Shown one piece after another: positions 1-17,018 of a stretch of 19,550 nucleotides of DNA; position 1 is the first letter of the stretch, and each line of letters begins with the position of its first letter. Below the pieces are notes generated by a model. That model did no database searches, was not told where the DNA came from, and worked only from the letters and a program-made list of their open reading frames with translations. A program made the translations under genes and the position numbers. Origin of the DNA: a virus (taxonomy: Duplodnaviria; Heunggongvirae; Uroviricota; Caudoviricetes). The DNA lies in IMG/VR virus record IMGVR_UViG_2529292888_000015; one strand, given 5' to 3'.

Positions 1-52
1 ATGCCATTTGCTCGTTATTTCTGCATTTTCATAAACGTTGGTTTGGGAGAAG
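1..52. repeat. Left inverted repeat of the invertible segment (contains the presumed invertase crossover site)
   Basis: Perfect 52-nt reverse-complement match to 1883..1934; both alternative fibre ORFs begin inside a repeat and so share the first ~17 codons (MPFARYFCIFINVGLGE). Confidence 0.8.
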
Positions 53-1088: not shown

Positions 1089-1512
1089 GCCATTCAATAT
1101 CTGGCGCACCGGAAGTATCGACCAGCTCCAGTGCGTCCAGATAATCCAGCCACAAATTATATTGCGTCAGTTCGTCACCTTTCAGACGACCAATAGCCGC
1201 TTTACCGGGCCATTGCTTACTGTTCATGTATTCGTTGGCCTGGTTAATTAGTAGCTGTCTTTCTGATTCAGTAATTTCAATAAGCTCTTCATGCGTGGGT
1301 GGAGGAATATCTGCCCACGCAGGCAGCCCATCATCTCCGGCAATACGGATTTTTCCTTGTGGCGGTTCAGCCATAAACTCACTGATAATATTTTGATTTA
1401 CTTCCTTAGCGTCTGATAAATCCCATCCCTCTGATTTATATTTATCAATCATATCCACAGGGAAAAAAGCATTATGCCTTGCGCTATAAACATATTCGTC
1501 CATATAAATCAC
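1060..1512 (-). CDS. Tail fibre assembly protein, alternative copy (Tfa', orientation B)
   Basis: 150 aa on the opposite strand, convergent with the first Tfa; same C-terminal motif family (LTQYNLWLDYLDALELVDTSGAPDIEWPTPP). Confidence 0.8.
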   Translation of the reverse strand: MIYMDEYVYSARHNAFFPVDMIDKYKSEGWDLSDAKEVNQNIISEFMAEPPQGKIRIAGDDGLPAWADIPPPTHEELIEITESERQLLINQANEYMNSKQWPGKAAIGRLKGDELTQYNLWLDYLDALELVDTSGAPDIEWPTPPAVQAR

Positions 1513-1523
1513 CCTGAATAAAA

Positions 1524-1937
1524 TTACTCACCAACAGCCCACCAACTGTAATTCATCGATACCGTGTCGCTGGTTGATGACGTTCTGTAAGCAGAATTAA
1601 AGCCGGTTAACGTTGGGCCTTCTGCAGTCATCACGAACCCTCGCCCAGCGCCTAAAGGCGCACCGCCATCACCAGAATGAGTAAGCATGGCGCAGTCCGC
1701 TTTTTTGGGGAAAGGGATGCTGAATGTAATTCTCATTGTTTGCGTCGATAATGTCGGCGTAACCGCACCACGACCATATTGCAGGATTTTCCCGTTGGGT
1801 AATTTCATCCATCCATTACCACTGGCAAAAGAGGCCATGTCCGGTATCTGATTTTCCCCTGTCCCCACATCCCGTTTTGCCGCTTCTCCCAAACCAACGT
1901 TTATGAAAATGCAGAAATAACGAGCAAATGGCATCAT
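1524..1937 (-). CDS. Alternative tail fibre C-terminal variable domain (orientation-B tip), probably silent in this orientation
   Basis: Begins in the right inverted repeat with the same N-terminal peptide as the + strand tip; contains a classic fibre-tip motif (GWMKLPNGKILQYG). The annotated Met is unlikely to be a real start; expression would require inversion. Confidence 0.55.
   Translation of the reverse strand: MMPFARYFCIFINVGLGEAAKRDVGTGENQIPDMASFASGNGWMKLPNGKILQYGRGAVTPTLSTQTMRITFSIPFPKKADCAMLTHSGDGGAPLGAGRGFVMTAEGPTLTGFNSAYRTSSTSDTVSMNYSWWAVGE
1883..1934. repeat. Right inverted repeat of the invertible segment
   Basis: Reverse complement of 1..52, ending 30 bp upstream of the invertase start codon. 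Confidence 0.8.
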
Positions 1938-1963
1938 TCCTGCTTTTGTCAGGGAGATCTACC

Positions 1964-2518
1964 ATGCTTATTGGCTATGTACGTGTGTCAACAAATGACC
2001 AGAACACAGATCTACAACGTAATGCGCTGAACTGTGCAGGATGCGAGCTGATTTTTGAAGACAAGATAAGCGGTACAAAGTCCGAAAGGCCGGGACTGAA
2101 AAAACTGCTCAGGACATTATCGGCAGGTGACACTCTGGTTGTCTGGAAACTGGATCGGCTGGGGCGCAGTATGCGGCATCTGGTCATTCTGGTTGAGGAG
2201 TTGCGCGAACGTGGCGTTAATTTTCGCAGCCTGACGGATGCTATTGATACCAGTACCCCAATGGGGCGCTTTTTCTTTCATGTGATGGGGGCCCTGGCTG
2301 AAATGGAACGAGAACTGATTGTTGAACGAACAAAAGCTGGACTGGAAGCTGCTCGCGCACAGGGACGAATTGGTGGACGTCGTCCCAAACTTACACCAGA
2401 ACAATGGGCGCAGGCCGGACGATTAATTGCAGCAGGAATTCCTCGCCAGAAGGTAGCGATCATCTATGATGTTGGTGTATCGACACTGTATAAGAAGTTT
2501 CCGGCCGGAGATAAATGA
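1964..2518 (+). CDS. pin: Serine recombinase / DNA invertase of the Pin/Gin/Hin/Cin family
   Basis: N-terminus MLIGYVRVSTNDQNTDLQRNAL carries the catalytic serine motif; VVWKLDRLGRS and C-terminal HTH (GIPRQKVAIIYDVGVSTLYKK); AGGGAG RBS at 1951..1956; start taken at the internal ATG at 1964 rather than the track's 1928. Confidence 0.92.
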   Translation: MLIGYVRVSTNDQNTDLQRNALNCAGCELIFEDKISGTKSERPGLKKLLRTLSAGDTLVVWKLDRLGRSMRHLVILVEELRERGVNFRSLTDAIDTSTPMGRFFFHVMGALAEMERELIVERTKAGLEAARAQGRIGGRRPKLTPEQWAQAGRLIAAGIPRQKVAIIYDVGVSTLYKKFPAGDK

Positions 2519-2575
2519 AACCGTAGCACGTCGTATGCAAGATCGTGCTGCGGTTTATGCTTACCACTTGAAGAT

Positions 2576-3445
<870 letters not shown>

Positions 3446-3528
3446 CTAACCCTTTGAATTTACATAGCGCAAAAAGATACCTTTCCTCATAATGTGAGCT
3501 AATTTTATGTTTCGTTTGATGATCGGGT

Positions 3529-3590
3529 CGGTCTCGAAAACCGGAGTAGGGGCAACTCTACCGGGGGTTCAAATCCCCCTCTCTCCGCCA
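3529..3590 (+). other. 3' fragment (~62 nt) of a tRNA-Ser(CGA) gene, from anticodon stem to CCA; presumed prophage att core duplicate
   Basis: cggtctcgaaaaccggagtaggggcaactctaccgggggttcaaatccccctctctccgcca matches the anticodon loop (CGA), long variable arm, T-arm and acceptor 3' strand of enterobacterial tRNA-Ser, recalled from memory. No matching 5' acceptor strand (GGAGAG...) upstream, so it is not a complete tRNA. Confidence 0.7.
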
Positions 3591-4172
3591 CTTTATCAAT
3601 GACTTATCTCCCGACTTCCCGCCTTGCTTTTCCTAAACAGAACAATCGTAGAATATTCTTGAAGGGTTAGATCGTCACTGTTTTCTGTTCGATACTGTGA
3701 CATTCAGCACTTGATTCGCTATGGATCTGACAGGAAGGTTTTGAGCGAAAATCTGCAGTTATTCAGTCGTTTTCTTATCGGTCACCATTATTCTTTTAGA
3801 CATTGATCCTACAAAGCTGCCGCAAAGTTGGTGGTGGGAACTGAAGTTGCGTAGAGAAGGGGTCAATACCCGGAGGCAAACATGGGCTGGCAAAAGTGTA
3901 GCGGTATTAGGCGCAGCTATTTAGCCTAGTTATGTTTTATGAAAACTTGATATCATATAAGTGTCTTACTTATTGGCTGTAAATAAGTTTTTCCTAAGGA
4001 ATTGTTTCTTGAGTATCATTTGTAACTGTAACGGAATTTATAATCCTTTGCTTTATTGTTACGGTATTTTTTATCACACCCTATTTTTAGTGGTTTTTTA
4101 TACTGAAGTTTGGCAAAGTGAACTTTATATACATATACTTCATCCTGGTTTCAGTTAAATTGGGGGGATGAT

Positions 4173-4916
4173 ATGGCAACTACATGTTCAGTTATATTGA
4201 TTTTGGAGTCCTTTGATGTTTATTTCGGAAAAGAGAGTGTGTTTCTGGAGAGAGGTTCATCTGTACTTGTCGACTCTAGCTCTAGAGATTTTTTCCTGAC
4301 ATATCCTGAAAGAGTGATAGTGGCGGATTTTGGCGCTGAGTTTATTAGTCGCTATTTGAAAGCTAATAACTTAAGGGATATTTCTGATTGTAGGGAATAT
4401 CCATCTTATTTAAAAATAAACTTTGCTGACTTCAGTTTAATTAAAGGATTAATTAGTTGGGCTAATCACTGTGCTGAATACATAGAAATTTTTGATGAGT
4501 CTATTGCTTTTACATGTCTCTCTGCATTTTCTTCTGAAAAACAATTTGGAGTATTTCTGTTTGGATGTTTGAAAAGCACAGGGGCTAAAGTTAAAACGAT
4601 TATTCATACGGATTTATCTGCACCATGGCGTCTTAAGGATATATCATCAAGATTATATCTCAGCGAAAGTTTACTAAAGAGGAAATTGAAAGAAGAGGGG
4701 GTATCATTCAGTAAGATCATACTTGATGAGAGGATGCAAATGGCTGAATATTTACTCAGCACTCGTTGTTATCCTATTAGTAAAGTAGCTAAGGTCTGTG
4801 GTTATGCCAGTGTCTCATACTTTACTTATGTATTTAGACGTTATTTTGGTGTTTCTCCAAGTCAATACTCTCAGAGGAGTTCAGAAAGTAAAATTCTTAC
4901 TCACCAGGGAATCTGA
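4173..4916 (+). CDS. AraC/XylS-family transcriptional regulator (AppY/EnvY/Rns-like small activator)
   Basis: 247 aa; C-terminal AraC-type double HTH (SKIILDERMQMAEYLLSTRCYPISKVAKVCGYASVSYFTYVFRRYFGVSPSQY); AT-rich gene with an extremely AT-rich upstream region. Confidence 0.85.
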   Translation: MATTCSVILILESFDVYFGKESVFLERGSSVLVDSSSRDFFLTYPERVIVADFGAEFISRYLKANNLRDISDCREYPSYLKINFADFSLIKGLISWANHCAEYIEIFDESIAFTCLSAFSSEKQFGVFLFGCLKSTGAKVKTIIHTDLSAPWRLKDISSRLYLSESLLKRKLKEEGVSFSKIILDERMQMAEYLLSTRCYPISKVAKVCGYASVSYFTYVFRRYFGVSPSQYSQRSSESKILTHQGI

Positions 4917-5400
4917 TCATTGTTCTTGCCCCCTTATTTCCAGACAGGGGGGGTATCTTAAGTTAACGTTACCCGCTGACGTCGATATTCTCGCGGAGAG
5001 CGATAACCCAACGCACTGTGCGGATGGTTTTCATTGTAATGTTCGATCGCCACTGCAAGATTATGCAATGCCGTTCTTACATTCGGTTTCGGCATGAACG
5101 CGATGTAGTCTTCCTTCATCGTTTTCACGAACCTTTCTGCAATTCCATTACTCTGAGGACTGCTGATTGCCGTTGTGCAGGGCTCCAGATTCAACTCTCT
5201 GGCGAACTGCCGTGTTTCATGCGCTCTATACGCTGAACCGTTATCTGTCAGCCACTGGATGGACTGTTCCGGTACTTTATCGCCAAAGCGTTTTTCTATC
5301 GCTCCTAACATGACATCCTGCACTGTCGCTTTATCGTAACCTCCCGTGCTTGCGGCCCAGTCTATGGCTTCACGATCGCAACAGTCCAGGGCGATTCATC
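4917..5400 (-). mobile_element. IS2-like (IS3 family) insertion sequence remnant: right terminal repeat plus the 3' part of the transposase gene
   Basis: 4920..4945 (ttgcccccttatttccagaca) resembles the IS2 terminal inverted repeat as recalled from memory; adjacent ORF encodes only the C-terminal DDE-domain portion of an IS3-family transposase. Upper boundary is approximate. Confidence 0.6.
4958..5323 (-). pseudogene. Truncated IS3-family (IS2 OrfB-like) transposase, C-terminal fragment only
   Basis: 121-aa ORF with [21 protein letters not shown]...[20 protein letters not shown]...[12 protein letters not shown], the C-terminal rve/DDE region; the ~180 N-terminal residues and orfA are absent. 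Confidence 0.7.
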
Positions 5401-5670
5401 TGGGCCAATCCTTGCTCATAACAGGCATTCACTTCAGTCATGGCAGAAAGGTATGCATGCTGGAGAAGTCGTGAAAGAAAAGAAGACTGCTGCGCCGTTT
5501 GTCGTCACGTTTATCTTCATTGGCTATGCAAGTCGTAATACAAGGTGGGACAAAACTGAGACACATAAGGCCTCGCAATGGCTTGCAAGGCTTTACATGT
5601 TTTGATGTGGTGGGACGTGTGAGCGCAGTGTTGATGGGGTAATGCTTTGAATTAGAAGCGGATTCTTATA

Positions 5671-5716
5671 ATTCGTAATGCGAAGGTCGTAGGTTCGACT
5701 CCTATTATCGGCACCA
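5671..5716 (+). other. 3' fragment (46 nt) of a tRNA-Thr(CGU) gene; left att site of the P4-like element
   Basis: attcgtaatgcgaaggtcgtaggttcgactcctattatcggcacca matches the anticodon loop to CCA end of enterobacterial tRNA-Thr (thrW-like), recalled from memory; the 5' half is missing. Integrase gene begins 163 bp downstream. Confidence 0.75.
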
Positions 5717-5878
5717 TCTCAACTTCCTCAAACGTCCGTATTAGTCCATAAAATCTCTGATTTATAACATTTTTTATTCTTTTAAGTCCATAGTAGTCCG
5801 TAACCATCCAGTAGAATCCGGTACTGAATGTGTATAGGATTGTGTATATGTTCCTGTTCGGTCTGGATTCCTATACAC

Positions 5879-7060
5879 ATGCCTTTAAACGATATGCAGA
5901 TTCGCCGCGCTAAGCCTGAAGCTAAAGCCTATACATTTGGAGATGGGCTAGGGTTGTCATTACTTATAGAACCTAATGGAAGCAAGAGTTGGCGGTTCCG
6001 CTATCGCTATGCCGGCAAACCCAAAATGATCTCGCTTGGTGTTTACCCAACGATCACCCTTGCCGATGCTCGTTCCCGTCGTGATGAAGCTCGAAAACTT
6101 GTGGCAGAAGGAAAGAACCCTAGTGAGGTTCGAAAAGAGCAAAAGCTAGCTATGCAAACAGAGTCAGAGAACGCCTTCGAAAAGATAGCCAGAGAGTGGC
6201 ATCAACTTAAATCTGCTAAATGGTCGGCGGGATATGCATCAGACATCATGGAAGCGTTTAAGAACGACATTTTTCCTTATGTCGGAACAAGGCCTGTGGG
6301 AGAGATTAAACCGCTAGAGCTGCTGAACGTTCTGCGTAAAATTGAGAAACGTGGTGCGTTGGAGAAAATGCGCAAAGTGCGGCAGCGTTGCTCCGAAGTG
6401 TTTCGCTACGCAATTGCAACGGGTAGGGCGGAGTACAATCCTGCGGCTGATCTCTCCAGCGCTCTCGAAGTACACCAATCCAATCATTTCCCATTCCTAA
6501 AAGCTGATGAGATACCTGATTTTCTACGTGCCTTAGAGGGTTACTCCGGGAGTAAGCTTGTCCAGATAGCCACGAAATTACTGATGATTACGGGTGTGAG
6601 AACCATCGAATTACGCGCGGCATTATGGCAAGAATTTGATCTGGATAACGCTATTTGGGAAATTCCTGCTGAAAGGATGAAAATGCGTAGGCCACATCTT
6701 GTGCCCTTATCATCTCAAGCGGTAGATTTACTCAATGAACTCAAGATCATGACAGGGAACTATCGTTATGTTTTTCCAGGGCGGAACGATCCGAATAGGC
6801 CAATGAGCGAAGCGAGTATAAATCAAGCCATTAAGCGTATTGGGTATGGAGGAAAAGTCACTGGACATGGTTTTCGTCATACCCTTTCTACAATCCTGCA
6901 TGAGCAAGGTTTTGAGAGTGCTTGGATTGAAATCCAGTTGGCTCATGTAGATAAAAATTCTATTAGGGGGACTTATAACCATGCTCAATATTTTAGTGGA
7001 AGGAAGTCTATGATGGACTGGTACAGTAATTTGATATTTGAAAGACTAAAAAGGAGTTAA
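5879..7060 (+). CDS. int: P4-type tyrosine integrase
   Basis: N-terminus MPLNDMQIRRAKPEAKAYTFGDGLGLSLLIEPNGSKSWRFRYRYAGK is the typical P4-integrase arm-binding start; catalytic HGFRHTLST (HxxR) and C-terminal RGTYNHAQY tyrosine. Start set at ATG 5879 rather than the track's 5828. Confidence 0.92.
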   Translation: MPLNDMQIRRAKPEAKAYTFGDGLGLSLLIEPNGSKSWRFRYRYAGKPKMISLGVYPTITLADARSRRDEARKLVAEGKNPSEVRKEQKLAMQTESENAFEKIAREWHQLKSAKWSAGYASDIMEAFKNDIFPYVGTRPVGEIKPLELLNVLRKIEKRGALEKMRKVRQRCSEVFRYAIATGRAEYNPAADLSSALEVHQSNHFPFLKADEIPDFLRALEGYSGSKLVQIATKLLMITGVRTIELRAALWQEFDLDNAIWEIPAERMKMRRPHLVPLSSQAVDLLNELKIMTGNYRYVFPGRNDPNRPMSEASINQAIKRIGYGGKVTGHGFRHTLSTILHEQGFESAWIEIQLAHVDKNSIRGTYNHAQYFSGRKSMMDWYSNLIFERLKRS

Positions 7061-7063
7061 TTT

Positions 7064-7480
7064 GTGTCTCAACCACTTTCGGAAATATTGACATGGGATG
7101 ATGAACAATGGGAGGTATTTGTCCATGATTGGCTTATTGTCTGTAAATCAGATGATTACCCGTGGAGCGAACGTTTGGGAGGAGCTGGAGATAAAGGTAG
7201 AGACGTTGTTGGATATAAATCGGATCCTAACGTAGAAGGTTATTCTTGGGATAATTATCAATGCAAACTGTACAAAAAAAGTTTAGGGTTCTCTGATGTT
7301 GTAGTTGAGTTTGGAAAACTTATCTATTTTACTCTGAATGGTGATTATCCCATCCCTCAGAAGTACTTTTTTGTGGCACCCTATGATTTATCTACTACAT
7401 TTTCTAATTTATTGAAAAATAAAAACGAGCTTAAAAAAGCAGTCCTTGATTCATGGGATTCAGCAATTTCAAAAAAATAA
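7064..7480 (+). CDS. Mrr-like PD-(D/E)xK restriction-endonuclease catalytic domain protein; probable N-terminal part of a frameshifted effector gene (LmuA-like)
   Basis: GTG start with AAAAAGGAG RBS overlapping the int stop. GDKGRDVVGY ... DNYQCKLYKK ... KYFFVAPYDLSTTF aligns with the Mrr_cat motif order (GDGGIDG ... VQAKR ... GVFITTSGFT). ORF ends at a TAA immediately after an A7 run. Confidence 0.6.
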   Translation: MSQPLSEILTWDDEQWEVFVHDWLIVCKSDDYPWSERLGGAGDKGRDVVGYKSDPNVEGYSWDNYQCKLYKKSLGFSDVVVEFGKLIYFTLNGDYPIPQKYFFVAPYDLSTTFSNLLKNKNELKKAVLDSWDSAISKK

Positions 7481-8070
7481 CTAAAAAGATTGATATTCCA
7501 TTAGATGATGAAATAAAAAAATATATTGAGGATTTTGATTTTAGTATTTTTTACTCTCTACCCTTATCATTGATTTTAAATGATATTGCAAATACACACC
7601 TTTATTTTAAGTACTTTAACGAGCTGTATGTCGTGAGAATCCCTCCAAATGAAATTCCAACATACAATTCAAAAAAAGAGTCTGTATATGTTAATGCACT
7701 GCTTCAAGCCTATTCAGAGCATGGAAATAAAACTTATAGTTCTTTCTTAGAGCTTGATGATCCATACAGACGACACTTTAATAATAGTAGAAATGATTTT
7801 TATTTTGCATCTTCGCTTGAGGTTTTTGTCCGCGAAGTATTTAAAGATGATGTATTCAAAGCATTGAAATGTTACATTTCATCTTCAATTGAACCCGTCT
7901 TTTATGAAGACCATAATTATGCATTTATTAGGTGTAATGCAGTCTTGAAGCAGGCTGTTCTGACACCAATTGCACATTCAGTACTATCAAAAATATGTGA
8001 AGCAAATGATAAAAAAGGAATATGCCATCATTTGGTTAATGATGGTGAAGTAATTTGGACGGTGAGATAA
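7453..8070 (+). CDS. Hypothetical protein; probable C-terminal part of the same effector gene, in a different frame
   Basis: Overlaps the previous ORF by 28 nt; one extra A in the 7471..7477 run would fuse the two into a ~335-aa protein. Stop overlaps the next start (TAATG at 8068..8072). Very AT-rich. Confidence 0.55.
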   Translation: MGFSNFKKITKKIDIPLDDEIKKYIEDFDFSIFYSLPLSLILNDIANTHLYFKYFNELYVVRIPPNEIPTYNSKKESVYVNALLQAYSEHGNKTYSSFLELDDPYRRHFNNSRNDFYFASSLEVFVREVFKDDVFKALKCYISSSIEPVFYEDHNYAFIRCNAVLKQAVLTPIAHSVLSKICEANDKKGICHHLVNDGEVIWTVR

Positions 8071-8528
8071 TGGTTAGAATTTATAATTCAAGTTTAGAAG
8101 TGGCATGTCGAATGGCGAAAGTGCTCGTCGCTATTTATCCTTCTTCATTAAGCCTTGAACGGCTTATTTGTTTTGATTTTATTTTAGTAAATCTTAAGGA
8201 TTTTTTACCTGAAGAGATTAGTCTTCATCCTCCAATACCCCGTAGAGATGCTCAGTTAGCCCTAAAACGAGAGATTGTTTTAGAATCATTGGCTTTGTTG
8301 CAAGGCTATGAACTAGCCTCAAAAATTTATACACATCGTGGTTTTGTATATAAAGCTTCTGAAAAAACATATGCATTTACAAATTCTCTACATAATGAAT
8401 ATGTTGCGCAGATGGAGCATAATATAAATTTGGTGGTTAAGTTATATAGTGATATTCCTGATGAGCAGTTGCAATCAATTATAAAAAATAAAATTGGCAA
8501 ATATGATATGGAATTTAATTATGAATGA
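8070..8528 (+). CDS. Small predicted alpha-helical protein (~152 aa), middle gene of the cargo operon (LmuC/DdmB-like position)
   Basis: ATG at 8070 coupled to the upstream stop; stop TGA at 8526..8528 overlaps the downstream ATG at 8521 (ATGAATGA). No recognisable catalytic motif. Confidence 0.6.
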   Translation: MVRIYNSSLEVACRMAKVLVAIYPSSLSLERLICFDFILVNLKDFLPEEISLHPPIPRRDAQLALKREIVLESLALLQGYELASKIYTHRGFVYKASEKTYAFTNSLHNEYVAQMEHNINLVVKLYSDIPDEQLQSIIKNKIGKYDMEFNYE

Positions 8529-9153
8529 CAATTTTTTTACGTTCAGAAAAATAAAGGTAACCGGATTCAATAAATTAGATGCTATAATTGAATTTGGTTC
8601 TAAATTGACTATTTTATATGGTGGTTCTGACTCTGGAAAAACATACATATATTATTTGATTCGATATTTATTAGGGAGTGAAAAACTAAAAAATAAAGAT
8701 ATCGATCATGCTCAAGGTTATGATTTAGCCTATCTGGAATTTAATTTTCAAGGTAGGGTAATGACAATTGAGAGGTCTCTTCAGGATAGCGCCCATTACA
8801 GATTATATGATTCGAGCATTGAAAATGTTAGTGAAGCTAATCTGTTGATGGTTTTTTCCAAAAGTGCTTCGTCTAAAAAGAGTTTTTCATCATACTTTTA
8901 TGGTAGGTTGAATTTCAAAGAGGCTAAAGTAAGAACAAACTTAAGTAATACTCTTCATAAATTTAATCTTAATAATGTTTTTGAATTTTTTTGTATTGAT
9001 GAATTAAGAGTGTTAACTGAGAAGTCGTTAATTCTTTCTGATATTCCTAGCGAGGAGACAAAAAGAAAGTCTGAATTTAAATTCCTTTTAACTCAGAGAG
9101 ATGATACTAACTCCTTAGCAGAAAAACCAAATAAAAAAGCAAGATATTTTTAA
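8521..9153 (+). CDS. SMC/Rad50/RecF-like ABC ATPase, N-terminal head with Walker A; apparently terminated by an in-frame TAA
   Basis: FRKIKVTGFNKLDAIIEFGSKLTILYGGSDSGKTYIYYLIRYLLG is the SMC_N/AAA_23-type N-terminal strand plus Walker A (GGSDSGKT). The next ORF is in the same frame, separated only by TAA 9151..9153. Confidence 0.65.
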   Translation: MNDNFFTFRKIKVTGFNKLDAIIEFGSKLTILYGGSDSGKTYIYYLIRYLLGSEKLKNKDIDHAQGYDLAYLEFNFQGRVMTIERSLQDSAHYRLYDSSIENVSEANLLMVFSKSASSKKSFSSYFYGRLNFKEAKVRTNLSNTLHKFNLNNVFEFFCIDELRVLTEKSLILSDIPSEETKRKSEFKFLLTQRDDTNSLAEKPNKKARYF

Positions 9154-9183
9154 AAAAATCAAATTGCAAATATTTATGAGGAA

Positions 9184-9774
9184 TTGAAAGCGCAATTAAT
9201 TTATCCTGAATATGATCAAGTCATTGTTTCAAGAGAACTTGAGAAAGTAGAGCAAGATATTGAATCATCGAAAGATATATTGAAAGGTATTGTTGATGCA
9301 CTTGATGATAAGAAGCAATTATTAAAAGAGTTAAGTGATGAATTATATTCAATCAGTGACAGGGAAAAATACTTATCATTACTCATTGAAAGATTTAGTC
9401 TTCTTAAAGACCAATACTTTATAGATCTACAAAGAATAGATGTTGTATCACAGGCGAATTTCTATTTAAATAATTTTGCAGATATTTATTGTGAGTTCTG
9501 TAATACACCGCAAAAAAAAGAAAATGAAATATCATATGATGATTGTTTTTTGTCGTGTAATGCAGAAAAATTGAAAATCAAAAGCCAGCTGAAAGGATTA
9601 ATTGAATCAATCGGATCTAATGTTCGCGAACATGAATTAATTATGTTAAGAAAAAATGATGTTAATGAAATTTATCAATCAGAAAAAAGTGATTTTAAGA
9701 CGTTAGAAGATAAAAATATAAAACAATACATTCATCTCTTGAATCACTTTATGAATATAAAGACAATCTTTTAA
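9184..9774 (+). CDS. Coiled-coil segment with a central CxxC (CEFC), probable middle part of the same SMC-like ATPase
   Basis: Charged heptad-like sequence (ELEKVEQDIESSKDILKGIVDALDDKKQLLKELSDEL...); no in-frame ATG start (track uses TTG at 9184); same frame as 8521..9153. Confidence 0.5.
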   Translation: MKAQLIYPEYDQVIVSRELEKVEQDIESSKDILKGIVDALDDKKQLLKELSDELYSISDREKYLSLLIERFSLLKDQYFIDLQRIDVVSQANFYLNNFADIYCEFCNTPQKKENEISYDDCFLSCNAEKLKIKSQLKGLIESIGSNVREHELIMLRKNDVNEIYQSEKSDFKTLEDKNIKQYIHLLNHFMNIKTIF

Positions 9775-10340
9775 TGGATCACACAAAACATAGCATTCTA
9801 TCTTCATTACAAGATAAAGAAGATGATGTTGACGAACTTAAATACTCCGCCGAGGACTTTGACTCCTTAACAGTAGCTGATTTGTATGATATAGAAATAG
9901 CGATGCAAGACTTTTTGAATGATATAAATTTTGAAAATTCTAAAGATAACAAAGTGCGATTTGACGAAGATACATATGACTTTAATATCAATGGGAAACG
10001 CCGAGGAATGTTTGGTAAAGGTACCCGTGCAGTAATGCATGCTATATTTACCATTTGCTTTGCGGAATTTTTATCAAGAAAAGGGAATCCATTCATTGGA
10101 TTTGTTGTGCTTGATAGTCCATTAGTGACGCACTTTGATAAAGATAGAGGGGGTTCTCTATCGGATGTTAATAGCGTCAGTCTCAGTGATTCATTTTATC
10201 ACGCATTAATCAAAAGGGACTATAATTTCCAGATTGTAATTCTTGAGAATAAAGGTCCGACGTTCCAAATAAAAATTAATGATGCAAATAAAATCCATAA
10301 CTTAAATAAGAATGGAAGCTCTGGTTTTTATCCTGTTTAA
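9774..10340 (+). CDS. C-terminal head of an SMC-like ABC ATPase (signature-like and Walker B-like motifs, both non-canonical)
   Basis: GMFGKGTRAVMHAIFTICFAEFL ... FIGFVVLDSPL ... FQIVILEN occupy the positions of the signature, Walker B and H-loop of SMC-type heads but are degenerate (DS instead of DE). Start overlaps the upstream stop (TAATG); one extra A in the runs at 9712..9723 would fuse it to the preceding ORF. Confidence 0.55.
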   Translation: MDHTKHSILSSLQDKEDDVDELKYSAEDFDSLTVADLYDIEIAMQDFLNDINFENSKDNKVRFDEDTYDFNINGKRRGMFGKGTRAVMHAIFTICFAEFLSRKGNPFIGFVVLDSPLVTHFDKDRGGSLSDVNSVSLSDSFYHALIKRDYNFQIVILENKGPTFQIKINDANKIHNLNKNGSSGFYPV

Positions 10341-10370
10341 TACATTAAAAATATAACTGCTAATTGGGGT

Positions 10371-10396
10371 GCTCGAAATTATATTTCGTTTCGAGC
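10371..10396 (+). terminator. Hairpin downstream of the cargo operon (possible terminator, no clear U-tract)
   Basis: gctcgaaa (10371..10378) pairs with tttcgagc (10389..10396), beginning 31 bp after the stop at 10340. Confidence 0.3.
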
Positions 10397-10749
10397 GCTC
10401 AGTTCATTTCTAAATAATTTGCAAAATTATTTTGGGTACTTTCGCCTCTACACTTCCTTCGGGTGGTTCCACAATAATGGATCTCACCGGCGTTTGATAT
10501 TTTATAATCTAACCCCTTAGCGCGCGCAGCCCCCCACGCCTGCTCGCTTCGCTTAACAGACTGGTTTTCATGCATTCCGCAAATCGTCTCAGAAGCCACC
10601 ACACAAGGGCTTTCGCGTCAAAAATGGTGCATGAGAATCATGCGTTTTCATGCGCTATAGACATGCACTCATGCGCTCTCAGGCCAGCCAGGGAAAAGGC
10701 GTAAAAAATCCCAGTACTGGACCGGGATTACGTGGGCTTTTTTTGCTAA

Positions 10750-11022
10750 TCAGACAGGAATTTGCTGACGGCTTGACAGCTTTGACGCGGAGCCATAGCG
10801 ATTGAGAGTTTGCTGTTGTTTTTCCGGCATTTGTGCTTTCTCTGATTCCTGTTCATTGCGCCGGGGCTTCATGATTATCGTATCCACACTTTCCAGTGCG
10901 GTAAATGTGTAGGAACATTCAAGATTCTGGCACTGATACCATGAGCGTTTAACCGATGGTGCTTCATAGGCGGAGGTTCTGGCGTGTGCCGTCGTACCGC
11001 ATTCGGGACATTTAAGTGCCAT
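10750..11022 (-). CDS. Ogr/Delta-family zinc-finger late-gene transcriptional activator
   Basis: MALKCPECGTTAHARTSAYEAPSVKRSWYQCQNLECSYTFTALESV follows the Ogr pattern C..C..AHARTS...QC.N..CS.TF..ESV; GGAG RBS inside the end of the upstream gene. Confidence 0.85.
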   Translation of the reverse strand: MALKCPECGTTAHARTSAYEAPSVKRSWYQCQNLECSYTFTALESVDTIIMKPRRNEQESEKAQMPEKQQQTLNRYGSASKLSSRQQIPV

Positions 11023-11027
11023 TAATA

Positions 11028-11579
11028 TTACTCCTGCATGCCGTTAATGTAATCCAGACGTTGCTGAAAGCGCAGTTGTTGTGCAGGGGTGTAAGAGCTC
11101 TGGCAATCACGAACCATCATGGGGTCAGGCATCACACCGGATTCATCCAGAATCATACGATAATCCCCGGCAATTTCAGGCGGTGTTATTGCCAGCTGGC
11201 GAACCAGAGCATTGCGTAATATACGGGACGCAACGTCAACCCCTCCGCGCCCCTTCAGGAACGGAGCCAGTGCAGATGTCAGGGCTGCTCCATTCGCCTG
11301 CATAAAATTGCTGAGAGCGTCTTCTGTGCAGGCCTCCATCAGTTGATGCTGCGAGTAAATGCATTCGCGCGCAGCACAGTTAATTTGCCATTTCAGCACA
11401 TCCAGATGTTCCCGCTGTAATTCGAGCTGTCGAGCATAATCTGCTGGTTTTTCCATGGCAGTGAGGAGTGATTCTATCTGTTGTTCAACGGCTTTTCGGC
11501 TCTCACTATGTCCAGCCCACAGAATACGGGCATTTCTAAAACTGATAAGCGCTTGGTCTGGAGTGACTCGGGCCATCAT
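11028..11579 (-). CDS. psu: P4 Psu-like protein (polarity suppression / capsid decoration), assignment tentative
   Basis: 183 aa, close to P4 Psu size; sits in the late operon directly upstream of the Ogr/Delta gene and is coupled to the preceding gene (ATGA overlap at 11576..11579). Similarity to Psu is from imperfect memory. Confidence 0.5.
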   Translation of the reverse strand: MMARVTPDQALISFRNARILWAGHSESRKAVEQQIESLLTAMEKPADYARQLELQREHLDVLKWQINCAARECIYSQHQLMEACTEDALSNFMQANGAALTSALAPFLKGRGGVDVASRILRNALVRQLAITPPEIAGDYRMILDESGVMPDPMMVRDCQSSYTPAQQLRFQQRLDYINGMQE

Positions 11580-12328
11580 ACTGCTTTCTCCTTCTCAGCA
11601 CGTTCCTGACGAACCTTCATTTTATGCATAGCTGCTGGAGAGAGTTTATTACTGAAATCCAGACGGGCCGCATAATCCGGGGCAACTCCCGCCAGTTTAA
11701 ACACGGGGTCCTGTTCGGGCATCGCATCGTTAGTCAGAGCCGGTCTGGTGATATGTTTATGAATAAAATCTTTCAGCAGTGTGTCCGGGTCATTAACTGA
11801 ATGCACCACACCGACAACTGCGCTGGCTTCCCTGCCCATTGTTGATTTGAGCAGGCTTAGTGTCTGGATTAGTGCTTTTCCATGCGACTGCATAAAATCT
11901 TCCCAGATTTGTTTTGCGCGAATACCCACAAGGGTGTCGTGCGCGTGGATATACTTTCCGGCTAATTCCGCAGCCTCCTGCGGCAAAAGTGCATTTTCGC
12001 TTTCCTGAGCCGCCAGCAGCTCATCAAAATCCTCAAGCGTTTCTCGTCCCAGCGCAATTTCCGTGCGCAGTTTTTTCATTTCCTTTGAGACTACGCCCTG
12101 ACTTTCACGAAATAGCGTGCGCCACTCCTCATTCAGGGCGTTCGTCGTGGCTTCCATTTCAGCGCGGCGCTGGCGGATTGTCGCAATATTATCCGCTGCC
12201 GCTTTTTGCTGACGACGTGCTTCAAGCCATGCAGATTTGGTGGCATTCACTTTCTCAAGCGCCTGTTGCGTCGAAACAGGGATAGAAATTTCAACGATCG
12301 GGTTATTGTTCTGTTCTGGGATTGTCAT
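11576..12328 (-). CDS. First gene of the P4-like late operon; Sid-like (capsid size determination) by size and position
   Basis: 250-aa predicted helical protein, first gene of the leftward operon, divergent from the alpA/primase operon. No motif-level confirmation. Confidence 0.4.
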   Translation of the reverse strand: MTIPEQNNNPIVEISIPVSTQQALEKVNATKSAWLEARRQQKAAADNIATIRQRRAEMEATTNALNEEWRTLFRESQGVVSKEMKKLRTEIALGRETLEDFDELLAAQESENALLPQEAAELAGKYIHAHDTLVGIRAKQIWEDFMQSHGKALIQTLSLLKSTMGREASAVVGVVHSVNDPDTLLKDFIHKHITRPALTNDAMPEQDPVFKLAGVAPDYAARLDFSNKLSPAAMHKMKVRQERAEKEKAV

Positions 12329-12398
12329 GTCAGCACCTAGTGGTTTGTCGTGGTGTCAATTGTGCTGTGATGCATACAAAGCTGCCATTGAACGCCAT

Positions 12399-12416
12399 TG
12401 TGCGAGCGACAAGACA
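12399..12416 (-). promoter_or_regulatory. Candidate Ogr/Delta-responsive late-promoter element (TGT-N12-ACA) upstream of the late operon
   Basis: tgt gcgagcgacaag aca; centre lies ~80 bp upstream of the 12328 start codon, compatible with a -55 activator site and a ~25-nt leader. Confidence 0.3.
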
Positions 12417-12495
12417 AAGACTGAACCGCCCCGGACCTCTTTTGGCTAGCCAGAAAAGGCCTCGTTTAACTAAGGCTGTTTCAGACTTACCTTAA

Positions 12496-12710
12496 CTATT
12501 CACTACTATTCACTTAGGTAAAAAAAATAGGTAATACAGAAGGTTATAAGGTGAAGGGTTGGCATGGCAGTATTCATCGACTGTTCATAACTGTTCACAT
12601 GGGAATAAAATTATTTATGGTATTTTTTCATAATGGGTGGTTTTTTTATTCCTCGTAGCTATTTGTTTTTTGCTCCTCACCACTATTCACCCTTATTCAG
12701 GAGTATTCAA
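12496..12710. repeat. Iteron-like array: eight YTRTTCAY octamers in three 10-bp-phased clusters with AT-rich spacers (candidate ori/crr-type alpha-binding region)
   Basis: ctattcac at 12496 and 12506; gtattcat 12570, ctgttcat 12581, ctgttcac 12591; ctattcac 12683, ttattcag 12693, gtattcaa 12703. P4 ori and crr are known to carry TGTTCACC repeats bound by alpha. Confidence 0.45.
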
Positions 12711-13261
12711 CAGGCACATAAATAGACTGCATGTTTTTGCCGGGGAATAACATTTTCGCCTCTGGCCATGGTGTTGCATTTCATACTGATTTTTATAAAA
12801 CTAGATCTGTCCGGTTCTTTATGGATTCATTCGGATATATTTTACGATTTAAGGTGATGTTATTTAATATCAAGGTTTTTATGCAGGCCCAATGTTTATA
12901 AGTTGGATGCGATTCAAAAATATGCCCGGAAATTGGGGCCTGCAATGCAAGGCCTCGTGTAGAAGTTGTACTGCCTTGCTGTATTGGCGGTGGGGTTAGC
13001 ACTATCAGGTGCAATGACCCATAGGATAGTAAACCCTGGGTGAATGGTAGTTCCTATTAATGCTCCTGTATTTATAGTCCGCAGGCATGGTATTTATTAT
13101 GTCATTTTATATGGTTTAATCGGGCTTTAAATTCCATAAAATCAATATGTGACGCTAAATAAAAAATGCGTGCGCAGGTGGTTTATATACACATAATAAG
13201 GAACTACCTGAACCCGGATAAATTCATCCGGACTGTTGTGGAAATTAAAGAGGGTAGATAA

Positions 13262-13522
13262 ATGCGTAATATTTCTGTGTCTGCGCCAGCTCCTGCTGCG
13301 CCATTATTTCCTGTATCGAACCATCATGAGCGATTTTTACGCCTGCCTGAGGTGATGCACTTATGCGGGTTGTCCCGTTCGACCGTTTACGACCTGATCA
13401 GCCGCGATGCGTTTCCGAAGCAGATCCCGCTTGGCGGTAAAAATGTCGCCTGGGCACAGTCTGAGGTCAGCGCATGGATGGCGGACCGCATCAGCGCCCG
13501 TGGGCGGGGATGTGATGCATGA
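13262..13522 (+). CDS. alpA: AlpA / Vis-family phage transcriptional regulator (MerR-like HTH, excisionase-like)
   Basis: [50 protein letters not shown] is the AlpA signature; the true start may be downstream of the annotated ATG. Confidence 0.8.
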
Positions 13523-13881
13523 TGATACCTGCATACATTAAATACCTTTATTCTGGCTTGCTTACTGTCGTCATTTCCAGGTATAGTTTTTCCGCTGTCG
13601 CAAAATCGGCAGCCGGAATTGGCGTTCCGTATAACTTATTGGCGACAATTGACGCCCCTTGCGTCTTTTTTTACGTCGTAGCTCAGGCACAACCATTTTC
13701 AGGGCTGTGGTGTTTATGCTTACACCATGGTTCTATCGAGATAATGGTAGTCCGGGCGGGGCAGCCTTCGGGCTGGCCGGTTTCCAATAAGGCCGGTTAC
13801 GCCAACCCCGTTCGGGCTGCCACCAGTGAAATTGGCGTTTCCGGTGGTAGCAATAACCGCTACTTATTGGAGGCTGCCATC

Positions 13882-14076
13882 ATGGCTACAATCCTCACCC
13901 CGTCACACCCGCAATATGTCTTTGTGTTTGCCGCAATCCGCCGTGCTGACACTCACCCCCGCATCTGTATGCTTCGCACTGTCTCCTGCGATGAGCATTC
14001 CGCGCGCCGTTTGCTAGTCCGAGATTATGTACTCTCCCTTTCTGCACGGCTGCCTGCCGGGGAGGTGACGCTATGA
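13882..14076 (+). CDS. Small hypothetical protein (64 aa), first of three translationally coupled small ORFs upstream of the primase
   Basis: ATG at 13882 with GGAGG 8 nt upstream; stop overlaps the next ATG (ATGA at 14073..14076). The track's longer 13519 start gives an implausible N-terminal extension. Confidence 0.4.
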
Positions 14077-14294
14077 ACCAGTTTGAGATTTCCTACGACG
14101 ATGTTGTAAGGCTGAAACATTTACGCAATGTGGGTGAGTATGTAACTGGCATGGCAGCCCTGCAGGACTGTTATGAAAAGCCAGCAGGTGCCCAATGCGA
14201 ACAACTGGTTTCCCTCATTTATCTGATGACAGAGCAACTGGATGGAGTGGTGCAACGCTGCCATGACGACCTGATGAATGCGGAGGTGGCCTGA
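14073..14294 (+). CDS. Small hypothetical protein (73 aa), P4-like early operon
   Basis: Coupled at both ends by overlapping stop/start codons (ATGA at 14073, TGATG at 14292..14296); GGAGG RBS for the next gene lies within its end. Confidence 0.55.
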
Positions 14295-14539
14295 TGATAT
14301 GCTGTGAATCTCTTCTGGCACTTCGTGCCGCTCTGTATCGCCGTGCCATAGCCCGCGAGCTGGAAGGGTTCTATCTGCGCCAGCATGGGCAGCAAAGAGG
14401 GCTGGAAATTGCCTGCGCGTTGCTTTCGGATCTGATGGAGTCGGGGCCGCTTAAAGCCTGTCCGGTTCTCTCACTGCTCGGAATGACGGTCATGGATGAA
14501 CTTTGTTCCCGTCACCTCAACAAACCAGCGCTGCACTAA
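14294..14539 (+). CDS. Small hypothetical protein (81 aa), P4-like early operon
   Basis: ATG 14294 preceded by GGAGGTGG; stop at 14537..14539 lies within the primase RBS region. Confidence 0.55.
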
Positions 14540-14552
14540 GGAGGGCCGCACA

Positions 14553-16886: not shown

Positions 16887-16892
16887 CTGACC

Positions 16893-16915
16893 TAAGACCG
16901 GCTGTGCCGGTCTTA
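16893..16915 (+). terminator. Strong GC-rich hairpin directly after the primase stop (probable terminator, no U-tract)
   Basis: taagaccggc tgt gccggtctta: perfect 10-bp stem with 3-nt loop beginning 7 nt after the TAA at 16884..16886. Confidence 0.45.
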
Positions 16916-17018
16916 AATCCGCTACAGGAAATTATCTCAAAATATATATCGATAAAATTTAAAAGTTATATGCTAAGGCGTCAGCGGAAAATGCATCTAA
17001 TTCATTGTTAGATGATGT

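What the first reader, a model, noticed from the sequence alone, without database searches (positions are those of the whole stretch)
7064..10340. Lamassu-like nuclease / small protein / SMC-like ATPase operon in the P4-satellite cargo slot
Directly downstream of the satellite integrase (RBS overlapping the int stop) lies a ~3.3-kb block that is far more AT-rich than the flanking P4 core (about 25-30% versus about 50% G+C by hand count of sample stretches). It encodes in order: a protein whose N-terminus has the Mrr-type PD-(D/E)xK motif order (GDKGRD ... QCK ... hydrophobic strand); a ~150-aa helical protein; and a ~600-aa equivalent SMC/Rad50-like ABC ATPase (Walker A GGSDSGKT, long coiled coil, C-terminal head). 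Nuclease effector, small subunit and SMC-like ATPase is the architecture of Lamassu (LmuA-LmuC-LmuB / DdmABC). It occupies the int-to-psu position where P4 carries gop/beta/cII and where P4-like satellites are known to carry variable anti-phage systems. Family membership is inferred from motifs only; it could be a Lamassu-Mrr variant or a related uncharacterised system.
Basis: partly seen in the sequence, partly recalled or inferred. Interest (0 to 1): 0.85.

Follow-up and report, generated by a model that had tools for sequence, protein, structure and literature searches.

The report
Broken Lamassu defence operon in satellite
This is a three-gene Lamassu anti-phage system carried in the cargo slot of the P4-like satellite prophage Sp2 of E. 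coli O157:H7, but two frameshifts and a stop codon have broken it, so it is a decaying relic of a known and already published kind, not a new system.

Summary
The window is E. coli O157:H7 (Sakai/EDL933), covering the end of prophage Sp1 and the P4-like prophage Sp2. Block 7064-10340 is real and AT-rich (27-34% versus about 50% G+C). It is a short (type II) Lamassu / ABC-3C operon in the order LmuA, LmuC, LmuB. LmuA has an Mrr-like PD-(D/E)xK nuclease domain plus CTD6, LmuC is an MC2 component, and LmuB is a Rad50/SMC-like ATPase. PADLOC E-values run from 1e-21 to 1e-50, and models of intact relatives best match solved LmuA and LmuB chains.

However, the operon is a pseudogene array with three lesions:
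- a 1-nt loss in an A-run that splits LmuA;
- a TTA>TAA nonsense codon in LmuB;
- a 1-nt loss in a second A-run in LmuB.

Intact relatives exist in Klebsiella aerogenes (LmuB only, 95%), Proteus mirabilis and Pantoea alhagi; the Pantoea copy sits in the same int-to-delta/psu slot. Strains of the O55:H7/O157:H7 lineage carry further independent indels. Their point changes are 11 nonsynonymous to 1 synonymous, which indicates relaxed selection.

The O55:H7 allele of this locus was published in 2024 as "Lamassu-var" with a weak phenotype; that paper does not mention frameshifts. Ordinary and already known; low interest.

The parts
5879..7060 (+). P4-type tyrosine integrase of prophage Sp2 (context). 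Its last codons carry the AGGAG that serves LmuA.
   Evidence: Pfam Arm-DNA-bind_3, Phage_int_M and Phage_integrase; annotated intS in Sakai.
7064..7480 (+). LmuA N-terminal fragment (138 aa): the Mrr-like PD-(D/E)xK nuclease domain, with catalytic-type residues D43, D47, Q66 and K68.
   Evidence: PADLOC LmuA PDLC03852 E 9e-41, profile 10-140. Mrr_cat only 12.2 bits. Residues invariant in 63 homologues.
7471..7477 (+). Lesion d1: an A7 tract that has lost one base relative to intact relatives. It splits LmuA at residue 137. In the N-terminal frame it reads A_AAA_AAA followed by TAA.
   Evidence: DNA alignment with the Proteus and Pantoea operons; tblastn frame switch at 7471-7474; present in all 309 complete E. 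coli records carrying the block.
7477..8070 (+). LmuA C-terminal fragment (linker plus CTD6 domain). The annotated ORF is 7453-8070.
   Evidence: PADLOC LmuA E 3.9e-44, profile 141-333; Pfam CTD6 E 7.7e-30.
8070..8528 (+). LmuC (152 aa), the ABC-3C middle component 2. It is the only gene of the operon still intact. Its ATG shares one base with the LmuA stop.
   Evidence: PADLOC LmuC PDLC03871 E 2.5e-36; Pfam MC2 E 6e-30; 90.8% identical to Proteus LmuC.
8521..9153 (+). LmuB fragment 1 (210 aa): N-terminal ATPase head lobe with Walker A GGSDSGKT (8620-8643). It ends at lesion d2, the TAA at 9151-9153 (TTA Leu in O55:H7, Proteus and K. aerogenes; CTG Leu in Pantoea).
   Evidence: PADLOC LmuB PDLC03863 E 1.3e-49, profile 3-199; AAA_23; 9152 A versus T.
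9154..9711 (+). LmuB fragment 2: ascending coiled coil, CxxC zinc-hook-like apex (9490-9501) and part of the descending coil. The annotated ORF is 9184-9774.
   Evidence: PADLOC LmuB E 1.6e-21, profile 231-412; C324 and C327 conserved 100% in 78 homologues; helices 233-318 and 339-439 in the model.
9712..9716 (+). Lesion d3: an A5 tract that is A6 in the intact Proteus relative. It shifts the reading frame of LmuB.
   Evidence: DNA alignment. Present in all 309 complete E. coli records.
9712..10340 (+). LmuB fragment 3: end of the coiled coil and the C-terminal head lobe, with a conserved GKG motif (repaired LmuB residues 499-501) and Walker B FVVLDS (10101-10118). The annotated ORF is 9774-10340.
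   Evidence: PADLOC LmuB E 5.1e-37, profile 428-608; D532, S533 and P534 conserved.
10367..10400 (+). Terminator-like hairpin 27 nt after the LmuB stop.
   Evidence: Consensus scan, 13-pair stem; pattern match only.
10750..12328 (-). P4-like late genes bounding the cargo slot: ogr/delta (10750-11022), psu (11028-11579) and sid-like (11576-12328).
   Evidence: Pfam Ogr_Delta 9.7e-17, Psu 4.7e-42, Psu 7e-10; Sakai annotation 'prophage Sp2, P4-like phage'.

Best explanation
The block is a short (type II) Lamassu operon of the Mrr-effector, CTD6/MC2 ABC-3C class. A P4-like satellite (Sp2) acquired it in its int-to-delta/psu cargo hotspot, and it is now inactivated.

How the intact form should work is inferred from the solved V. 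cholerae and Salmonella systems. Two LmuB Rad50-like ATPases and one LmuC hold one LmuA monomer inactive. Binding of free dsDNA ends or phage replication intermediates, together with ATP, releases LmuA. LmuA then oligomerises through its C-terminal domain and its nuclease degrades DNA, aborting the infection.

In this window that machine cannot assemble. LmuA is split between its nuclease domain and its CTD by a 1-nt loss in an A-run. LmuB is cut into three pieces by a nonsense codon and a second 1-nt A-run loss. Only LmuC is whole. The locus is drifting neutrally in the O55:H7/O157:H7 lineage.

Shown here: family assignment, the lesions, their fixation and the relaxed constraint. Inferred: the mechanism of the ancestral system and the loss of function.
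For: - Family. PADLOC LmuA, LmuC and LmuB hits have E 1e-21 to 1e-50 and lie colinear across the fragments. Pfam gives CTD6, MC2 and AAA_23.
- Operon conservation. LmuA-LmuC-LmuB are adjacent and in order in 75 of 78 distant loci, with median lengths 362, 169 and 624.5 aa.
- Fold. The LmuA model (pLDDT 94) best matches LmuA chains 9nxx, 9hqx, 9ny1 and 9uxh, then Cap4, MspJI and FokI nucleases. The LmuB model (pLDDT 86) best matches LmuB chains 9uxh_F, 9hqu_A and 9nyg_B (E 1e-12 to 1e-15), then Rad50 and SMC.
- Short-Lamassu hallmarks listed by Haudiquet et al. 2025 (PMC12663957) are present: about 600 aa, Gx4GK[ST], hhhhD[S] and one CxxC.
- Lesions. They are defined against intact operons of Yersinia, Proteus at 89.3% DNA identity and Pantoea at 78.7%, and K. 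aerogenes LmuB at 95% without gaps.
- Fixation. No complete E. coli record matches the repaired 81-mers at d1 or d3 exactly. No repaired full-length LmuB exists among about 15 billion proteins.
- Continued decay. Independent extra lesions occur in sublineages: 9683delA in three O55:H7 strains, 9650insA, 8985insT plus a CAA>TAA at 9160, 9512delA in two strains, and others. Nine of ten indels lie in homopolymers of at least 5 nt. There is also an IS insertion in some strains.
- Relaxed selection. Within the clade there are 11 nonsynonymous changes (2 of them nonsense) to 1 synonymous. On the older branch the ratio is 33:60. Fisher p = 2.5e-4.
Against: - Johnson et al. 2024 (PMC11754643) cloned the O55:H7 allele ('Lamassu-var', CP038295:4116517-4120474, identical to locus L013). 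They saw smaller plaques for T2, T4, T6 and RB69, which they read as function.
- The d1 site is a perfect A_AAA_AAA slippery heptamer. A -1 slip there would give exactly the ancestral LmuA.
- The exact repaired LmuA sequence occurs on 434 contigs of unknown origin, so LmuA is whole in some genomes.
- All conserved catalytic and ATPase residues are still present in the fragments, so inactivation is recent.
Confidence: 0.85

Rival explanations
1. The fragmented operon still defends. Low-level -1 ribosomal frameshifting or transcriptional slippage on the A-runs restores some full-length LmuA (and LmuB in O55:H7-type alleles), or the split pieces assemble in trans, giving a weak Lamassu.
For: A small-plaque phenotype against T-even phages was reported for the O55:H7 allele (PMC11754643). 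d1 is A_AAA_AAA followed by TAA, and a -1 slip yields the ancestral sequence ISKKITKK. The split in LmuA falls at the end of helix 120-138, after the nuclease core. Conserved residues are intact.
Against: The window allele has an in-frame TAA at LmuB codon 211 that slippage cannot bypass. d3 (GAT AAA AAT) is not a canonical X_XXY_YYZ heptamer. The tested O55:H7 allele has three frame-breaking lesions: d1, 9683delA and d3. The cloned fragment starts exactly at the LmuA GTG, so it lacks the native RBS and promoter, and it also contains ogr/delta; the phenotype is therefore not clearly attributable to Lamassu. Extra independent lesions and an 11:1 nonsynonymous-to-synonymous ratio argue against selection. 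A similar P4 'Lamassu variant' gave no protection against 28 phages in PMC13586616; whether it is the same locus is unknown.
Confidence: 0.07
2. It is a phase-variable (contingency) defence locus: homopolymer A-tracts switch the nuclease and the ATPase on and off by slipped-strand mispairing.
For: Both frameshifts, and 9 of 10 strain-specific indels, sit in A/T runs of at least 5 nt. Tract lengths differ among strains (A5, A6 and A7 at 9683-9688). The exact A8-repaired LmuA is found on 434 contigs.
Against: No allele with a whole LmuB exists in the protein collection. None of 309 complete E. coli records has the ON length at d1 or d3. Two or three independent reversions plus a nonsense reversion would be needed. 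In a 28-34% G+C gene block with 45 homopolymers of at least 5 nt, neutral indels are expected to fall in such runs anyway. Intact relatives have interrupted runs at d1 (CCAATAAAAT in Proteus, CAAAGAAAAT in Pantoea), so the tract is not a conserved switch.
Confidence: 0.05
3. It is not Lamassu but another ABC-ATPase defence system (Gabija, PARIS, Septu-like) or a housekeeping SMC/RecN-like repair module.
For: The LmuB N-terminal fragment also gives weak PADLOC hits to GajA, AriA and PtuA (E 1e-3 to 1e-6).
Against: These hits are 40 or more orders of magnitude weaker than the LmuB hits and cover only the P-loop region. The three-gene order, the CTD6 and MC2 partners and the top structural matches to solved LmuA and LmuB chains are specific to Lamassu. 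The block sits on mobile elements in every close relative examined.
Confidence: 0.02

Closest known systems
'Lamassu-var' of Johnson et al. 2024 (Domainator paper, NAR, PMC11754643): cluster 1 of E. coli Psu-to-integrase hotspots, cloned from E. coli O55:H7 TB182A, CP038295:4116517-4120474
   Same: It is the same locus. Within the block (window 7064-10340) the TB182A allele (L013) differs from the window at 8 substitutions and one 1-nt deletion. The flanking int, delta, psu and sid genes are the same. The count of 259 hotspots with '3 to 9 CDSs' and Psu about 31% identical to P4 Psu fits the O157:H7/O55:H7 lineage found here (309 of 5426 complete genomes).
   Different: The paper treats it as a new, functional Lamassu variant and does not mention frameshifts or pseudogenes. 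Here it is shown to be a canonical LmuA-LmuC-LmuB operon broken by lesions. The window (O157:H7) allele carries an extra nonsense codon that the cloned allele lacks. The paper says the elements are not P4-like. The core genes here (Ogr_Delta, Psu, AlpA, Ash, D5/Toprim primase) and the Sakai annotation are P4-like in organisation, although divergent.
Short (type II) Lamassu: V. cholerae DdmABC / Lamassu Vc-Cap4 and Salmonella enterica LmuACB (PDB 9nxx, 9ny1, 9nyg, 9hqu, 9hqx, 9uxh; Haudiquet et al. 2025, PMC12663957)
   Same: Three components. LmuB is about 600 aa with Gx4GK[ST], hhhhD[Q/S/T/E] and short coiled coils. LmuA has an N-terminal effector plus a C-terminal domain. These are the best structural matches of the models.
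   Different: The effector is Mrr-like rather than Cap4. LmuB has one CxxC, whereas Vc-Cap4 has none. Sequence identity to the solved chains is only 8-14%, and no sequence-level PDB hit was found. The window copy is inactivated.
ABC-3C (ABC three-component) systems as named in Pfam: effector with CTD6 (PF20282) and middle component MC2 (PF20288)
   Same: CTD6 E 7.7e-30 and MC2 E 6e-30. RefSeq already names the pieces 'ABC-three component system protein / middle component 2'.
   Different: None beyond the lesions. ABC-3C and Lamassu are two names for the same kind of system.
P4-like satellite defence hotspot between int and psu (Rousset et al. 2022 as cited in PMC11754643; PMC13586616)
   Same: The position is the same, directly after int and before delta/psu. 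The cargo is AT-rich. A Pantoea alhagi satellite has the intact homologous operon in the same slot.
   Different: PMC13586616 reports that recognisable defence pseudogenes are rare in P4-like elements (<1% of pseudogenes) and that systems are swapped before decaying. This locus is a clear counter-example, fixed in a whole pathogenic lineage.

Membership tests
Lamassu, short / type II | LmuB: SMC/Rad50-like ABC ATPase of about 600 aa with Walker A Gx4GK[S/T] | tested here: met
   GGSDSGKT at 8620-8643. G34, S36, G39 and K40 are conserved 97-100% in 78 homologues. The repaired length is 606 aa. PADLOC LmuB E 1.3e-49, 1.6e-21 and 5.1e-37 for the three pieces.
Lamassu, short / type II | Walker B of the short type, hhhhD[Q/S/T/E] (PMC12663957) | tested here: met
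   FVVLDS at 10101-10118. D532, S533 and P534 are 95-99% conserved. Definition taken.
Lamassu, short / type II | Head - antiparallel coiled coil - apex (optional CxxC) - head architecture, with fold similarity to solved LmuB | tested here: met
   Tested on the 87.8%-identical intact Proteus LmuB, not on the broken window protein. Helices 233-318 and 339-439 flank C324xxC327. Top Foldseek hits are LmuB chains at E 3.5e-15 to 4.8e-12.
Lamassu, short / type II | LmuC small middle subunit encoded between LmuA and LmuB | tested here: met
   Intact 152-aa ORF at 8070-8528. PADLOC LmuC E 2.5e-36; Pfam MC2 E 6e-30.
Lamassu, short / type II | LmuA with an N-terminal effector domain and a conserved C-terminal domain | tested here: met
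   PADLOC LmuA E 9e-41 and 3.9e-44, colinear across the two pieces. CTD6 E 7.7e-30. The model of the 67%-identical relative best matches LmuA chains at prob 1.0, although TM is only 0.26-0.34 because domain orientation differs.
Lamassu-Mrr subtype | Effector domain is an Mrr-type PD-(D/E)xK nuclease (Pfam Mrr_cat) | tested here: inconclusive
   The window fragment scores 12.2 bits against the cut-off of 21. 11 of 63 family members match Mrr_cat at E <= 0.01, best 1.6e-6. D43, D47, Q66 and K68 are invariant. Fold hits include Cap4, MspJI and FokI nuclease domains. This is consistent with Mrr-like but below Pfam's own threshold for this protein.
Lamassu (as a functional defence system) | All components encoded as complete open reading frames | tested here: not met
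   LmuA is split at the A7 tract 7471-7477. LmuB is cut by the TAA at 9151-9153 and by the A5 tract 9712-9716. This is fixed in 309 complete E. coli records.
Lamassu (as a functional defence system) | Protects against phage or plasmids (abortive infection) | not testable with these tools
   The only published test is of the O55:H7 allele: reduced plaque size for T-even phages, visible only at the most dilute titres (PMC11754643). The construct lacks the native upstream region and includes delta.
P4-like satellite cargo hotspot | Located between the P4-type integrase and psu/delta of an element with sid, alpA, ash and primase | tested here: met
   Pfam hits for int, Ogr_Delta, Psu, Psu-like, Ash and primase. 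AlpA is called in identical loci. Sakai feature 'prophage Sp2, P4-like phage'. No P2/P4 cos 19-mer, as I recalled it, was found.

The most novel reading that the evidence does not exclude
The broken operon is not dead. A -1 slip on the A_AAA_AAA tract restores LmuA, and the LmuB pieces (or LmuA and LmuC alone) give residual, possibly switchable, anti-phage activity. That would explain the published small-plaque phenotype and the 434 contigs with an A8-restored LmuA. It would amount to a recoded or phase-variable Lamassu retained in the O157:H7 lineage.
Probability: 0.06. Interest if true: 0.6.

Novelty: already known. Interest (0 to 1): 0.2.

Why it matters
There are three modest points.

1. 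The most frequent 'system' in E. coli Psu-to-integrase hotspots was published as a new functional Lamassu variant. It is in fact a canonical Lamassu (Mrr-like effector, CTD6/MC2) that has been pseudogenised. Its abundance simply reflects heavy sequencing of O157:H7. Defence-system censuses and functional claims for it should be corrected.

2. It is a clear case of a defence system decaying in place inside a P4-like satellite. This bears on the recent claim that such cargo is swapped before it decays.

3. Intact close relatives (K. aerogenes LmuB only; Proteus and Pantoea whole operons) are better candidates if anyone wants to study a Lamassu with an Mrr-like effector experimentally.

None of this opens a new biological question.

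Tried and rejected
- My first placement of lesion d3 near 9733, from the distant Yersinia protein alignment, was wrong. The 89%-identical Proteus DNA places it in the A-run at 9712-9716, and K. aerogenes LmuB confirms this.
- I suspected recurrent LmuA truncation in Proteus (L094) and Pantoea alhagi (L096) because short genes were called there. The DNA is identical or intact, and the short calls come from the GTG start.
- IMG/VR contig L113 appeared to have both A-runs restored. It carries about 20 further homopolymer indels within the block, and its LmuA translation is full of stops. It is either noisy or hyper-decayed, so I did not use it.
- Sequence searches of LmuA, LmuB and LmuC against the PDB found nothing useful. 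Only fold comparison linked them to solved Lamassu structures.
- NCBIfam has no model for any of the three proteins.
It was still useful for operon conservation.
- An 81-mer query for the TTA allele gave no match, probably because of the low-complexity filter.
- A search for the P2/P4 cos 19-mer, recalled from memory, gave no match.
- Supplements of the two key papers are not held, so I could not check whether the non-protective 'Lamassu variant' of PMC13586616 is this locus.
Intact relatives were modelled instead.

Full report
**Identity of the window.** Block 7064-10340 is 100% identical to E. coli O157:H7 Sakai, EDL933 and hundreds of other O157:H7 chromosomes. In Sakai it lies inside the annotated 'prophage Sp2, P4-like phage', directly after intS; the genes are ECs_0290-0293, and ECs_0293 is already flagged as a pseudogene 'AAA family ATPase'. 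RefSeq names the pieces 'ABC-three component system protein', 'ABC-three component system middle component 2' and 'AAA family ATPase'. Among 5426 complete E. coli genomes the block occurs in 309. All copies are at least 99% identical, and all listed rows that carry a serotype label are O157:H7/O157 or O55:H7. No diverged copy was detectable at the DNA level.

**Observation check.** Six ORFs lie in a row on the + strand and fill 7064-10340.
- G+C is 0.27-0.34 inside the block and about 0.50 in the P4 late genes to its right.
- The first ORF starts at GTG 7064, with AGGAG overlapping the int stop.
- LmuC's ATG shares a base with the LmuA stop, and LmuB's ATG (8521) overlaps the LmuC stop, as expected for a coupled operon.

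**What it is.**
- PADLOC profiles assign the ORFs to LmuA (two pieces covering positions 10-140 and 141-333 of one profile, E 9e-41 and 3.9e-44), LmuC (E 2.5e-36) and LmuB (three pieces covering 3-199, 231-412 and 428-608 of one profile, E 1.3e-49, 1.6e-21 and 5.1e-37).
- Pfam gives CTD6 and MC2 of the ABC-3C systems, and AAA_23.
- In 80 distant relatives from many phyla, LmuA, LmuC and LmuB homologues are adjacent and in that order in 75 of 78 loci that have all three, with median lengths 362, 169 and 624.5 aa.
- An AlphaFold model of the 67%-identical Xenorhabdus LmuA (pLDDT 94) best matches LmuA chains of solved Lamassu complexes, then Cap4, MspJI and FokI nuclease domains.
- A model of the 87.8%-identical Proteus LmuB (pLDDT 86) shows head, coiled coil, CxxC apex, coiled coil, head. 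It best matches solved LmuB chains (E 1e-12 to 1e-15), then Rad50 and SMC.
- The hallmarks of 'short' Lamassu given by Haudiquet et al. 2025 are all present: LmuB of about 600 aa, Gx4GK[S/T], Walker B hhhhD[Q/S/T/E], and zero to two CxxC.
- The effector is Mrr-like. D43, D47, Q66 and K68 are invariant, and 11 of 63 relatives reach Pfam Mrr_cat. The window protein itself scores below threshold. Mrr is a listed Lamassu effector class.

**It is broken.** Intact operons were found in several places.
- Yersinia frederiksenii: 336, 157 and 609 aa, next to a P4-type integrase and ogr/delta.
- Xenorhabdus bovienii: in a prophage.
- Proteus mirabilis: 335, 152 and 606 aa. DNA identity is 89.3%. The proteins are 92.5%, 90.8% and 87.8% identical to the repaired window proteins. 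It sits in a non-P4 island.
- Pantoea alhagi: proteins 86.6%, 81.6% and 75.6% identical, in the same layout of int, LmuACB, delta, psu, sid, alpA, ash, primase.
- Klebsiella aerogenes: LmuB 95% identical without gaps.

Against these, the window has exactly three lesions.
- d1 is one base missing at the A-run 7471-7477, which splits LmuA after residue 137.
- d2 is TTA>TAA at 9151-9153 (LmuB codon 211).
- d3 is one base missing in the A-run 9712-9716.

None of the 309 complete E. coli records that match matches the repaired 81-mers at d1 or d3 exactly.

**History and selection.**
- O55:H7 strains and an E. coli allele next to proBA (L101) share d1 and d3 but have TTA at d2, so the nonsense codon is the latest hit.
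- Sublineages have added independent lesions: 9683delA in three O55:H7 strains, including the published clone; 9650insA in DEC5B; 8985insT plus CAA>TAA at 9160 in CB9615; 9512delA in two strains; 9060delA, 7515delA, 7107delA and 9682insA; and IS insertions. Some single-assembly indels may be sequencing errors, but the shared ones are not.
- Nine of ten indels lie in homopolymers of at least 5 nt.
- Point changes within the clade are 11 nonsynonymous (two of them nonsense) to 1 synonymous.
- On the older branch, changes specific to the window allele relative to Proteus and Pantoea are 33 nonsynonymous to 60 synonymous, no worse than the Proteus branch at 44:68. The contrast is significant (Fisher p = 2.5e-4).

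The operon was therefore under purifying selection until shortly before the O55/O157 ancestor and has drifted since. All conserved residues are still in place, which fits recent inactivation.

**Mechanism.** For the intact ancestor I adopt the mechanism shown for V. cholerae and Salmonella Lamassu (PMC12663957). An LmuA1-LmuB2-LmuC1 complex sequesters monomeric LmuA. LmuB and LmuC bind dsDNA ends or phage replication intermediates. With ATP, LmuA is released and oligomerises through its CTD, which activates the N-terminal nuclease. Non-specific DNA cleavage then aborts the infection. Here the nuclease would be Mrr-like rather than Cap4, and the LmuB dimer would use a CxxC hook. This is inference by homology.

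In the window the sensor cannot form, because LmuB is in three pieces and the first ends at 210 aa. The effector is also separated from its CTD. The best reading is a non-functional relic (confidence 0.85).

**What argues otherwise.** Johnson et al. 2024 (PMC11754643) found this locus as the most frequent Psu-to-integrase hotspot cluster in E. coli: 259 instances, '3 to 9 CDSs', related to type II Lamassu. They cloned CP038295:4116517-4120474 and saw reduced plaque size for T2, T4, T6 and RB69 only at the most dilute titres.
- That fragment is the O55:H7 TB182A allele of this same locus. It carries d1, 9683delA and d3.
- The paper does not mention frameshifts or pseudogenes.
- The fragment begins exactly at the LmuA GTG, so it has no native RBS or promoter, and it ends with the whole ogr/delta gene. 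The weak phenotype is therefore not securely due to Lamassu.
- A P4 'Lamassu variant' tested in PMC13586616 gave no protection against 28 phages. I could not establish whether it is this locus.

Two facts keep a small door open.
- d1 is a perfect A_AAA_AAA heptamer followed by TAA, and a -1 slip would recreate the ancestral protein.

However, no repaired LmuB of any allele backbone exists in the 15-billion-protein collection.

**Comparison and novelty.** It is a member, in degraded form, of short/type II Lamassu with an Mrr-like effector (ABC-3C CTD6/MC2 class), sitting in the known P4-like defence hotspot. The system type, the hotspot and this very locus are already in the literature and in RefSeq annotation, so the finding is 'already known'. 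The added value is corrective. The 'variant' architecture is an artefact of pseudogenisation. The locus is also a counter-example to the reported rarity of recognisable defence pseudogenes in P4-like satellites.

**Verdict.** Observation confirmed. Interpretation supported. The element is ordinary and inactivated. Interest 0.2.

Noticed in passing
window 2576-3397 (- strand): An intact PD-T4-3 anti-phage gene (PADLOC PDLC04031, E 2.4e-140; Pfam LEM-3-like GIY-YIG nuclease) lies in the Sp1 lambda-like remnant, next to the pin invertase and tail-fibre genes. It is a second, apparently functional, defence gene about 4 kb upstream of the dead Lamassu.
   Followed up: partly
window 17019-17975 (- strand): A 318-aa ORF lies in a second AT-rich patch (29-33% G+C) just after the primase at the far end of Sp2. 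It has no Pfam, PADLOC or NCBIfam hit. About 35 homologue clusters exist in Enterobacterales (44-80% identity), all 'hypothetical' and without any precomputed Pfam domain. It is a candidate for unknown satellite cargo.
   Followed up: partly
window 7471-7480: Lesion d1 forms a textbook -1 slippery heptamer, A_AAA_AAA, immediately followed by a TAA stop. A -1 slip would give exactly the ancestral LmuA sequence (ISKK-ITKK). Frameshifting efficiency was not assessed.
   Followed up: no
protein collection (P0161, P0162), corresponding to window 7064-8070 with A8: The exact repaired LmuA is on 434 contigs (longest 1.88 Mb), and the O55-type repaired LmuA is on 1 contig. Yet none of the 309 complete RefSeq E. 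coli records that match has A8. Cluster members are also labelled Salmonella enterica (several serovars) by their sources. The origin could not be looked up.
   Followed up: partly
L013 (CP038295 4116517-4120474), corresponding to window about 7064-11022: The published 'Lamassu-var' construct is bounded exactly by CDS ends. It starts at the first base of ogr/delta and stops at the first base of the LmuA GTG. It therefore includes delta and excludes the RBS and upstream region of LmuA.
   Followed up: yes
window 10750-12328 (- strand): The late-gene order is sid-like, psu, delta rather than P4's sid, delta, psu. The sid-like protein itself matches Pfam Psu (E 7e-10), so it appears to be a Psu paralogue. 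The published Psu identity to P4 is only about 31%.
   Followed up: no
L101 (GCA_002460865.1), L096/L097 (Pantoea): Some E. coli carry the same satellite directly next to proB-proA with no Sp1 in between. Their Lamassu allele lacks the TAA: the 417-aa LmuB fragment is on 127 contigs. Pantoea alhagi has its intact relative at the same proBA-adjacent site.
   Followed up: partly
window 1-19550; 5652-5807: ARAGORN finds no tRNA gene anywhere in the window, including at the left end of Sp2. No match to the P2/P4 cos 19-mer, as I recalled it, was found between LmuB and delta.
   Followed up: no
H1-H3, L104 (some O157:H7 strains): An IS3-family element (IS1203-like) has inserted inside the LmuB region in several strains. 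This is a further, independent disruption of the operon.
   Followed up: no
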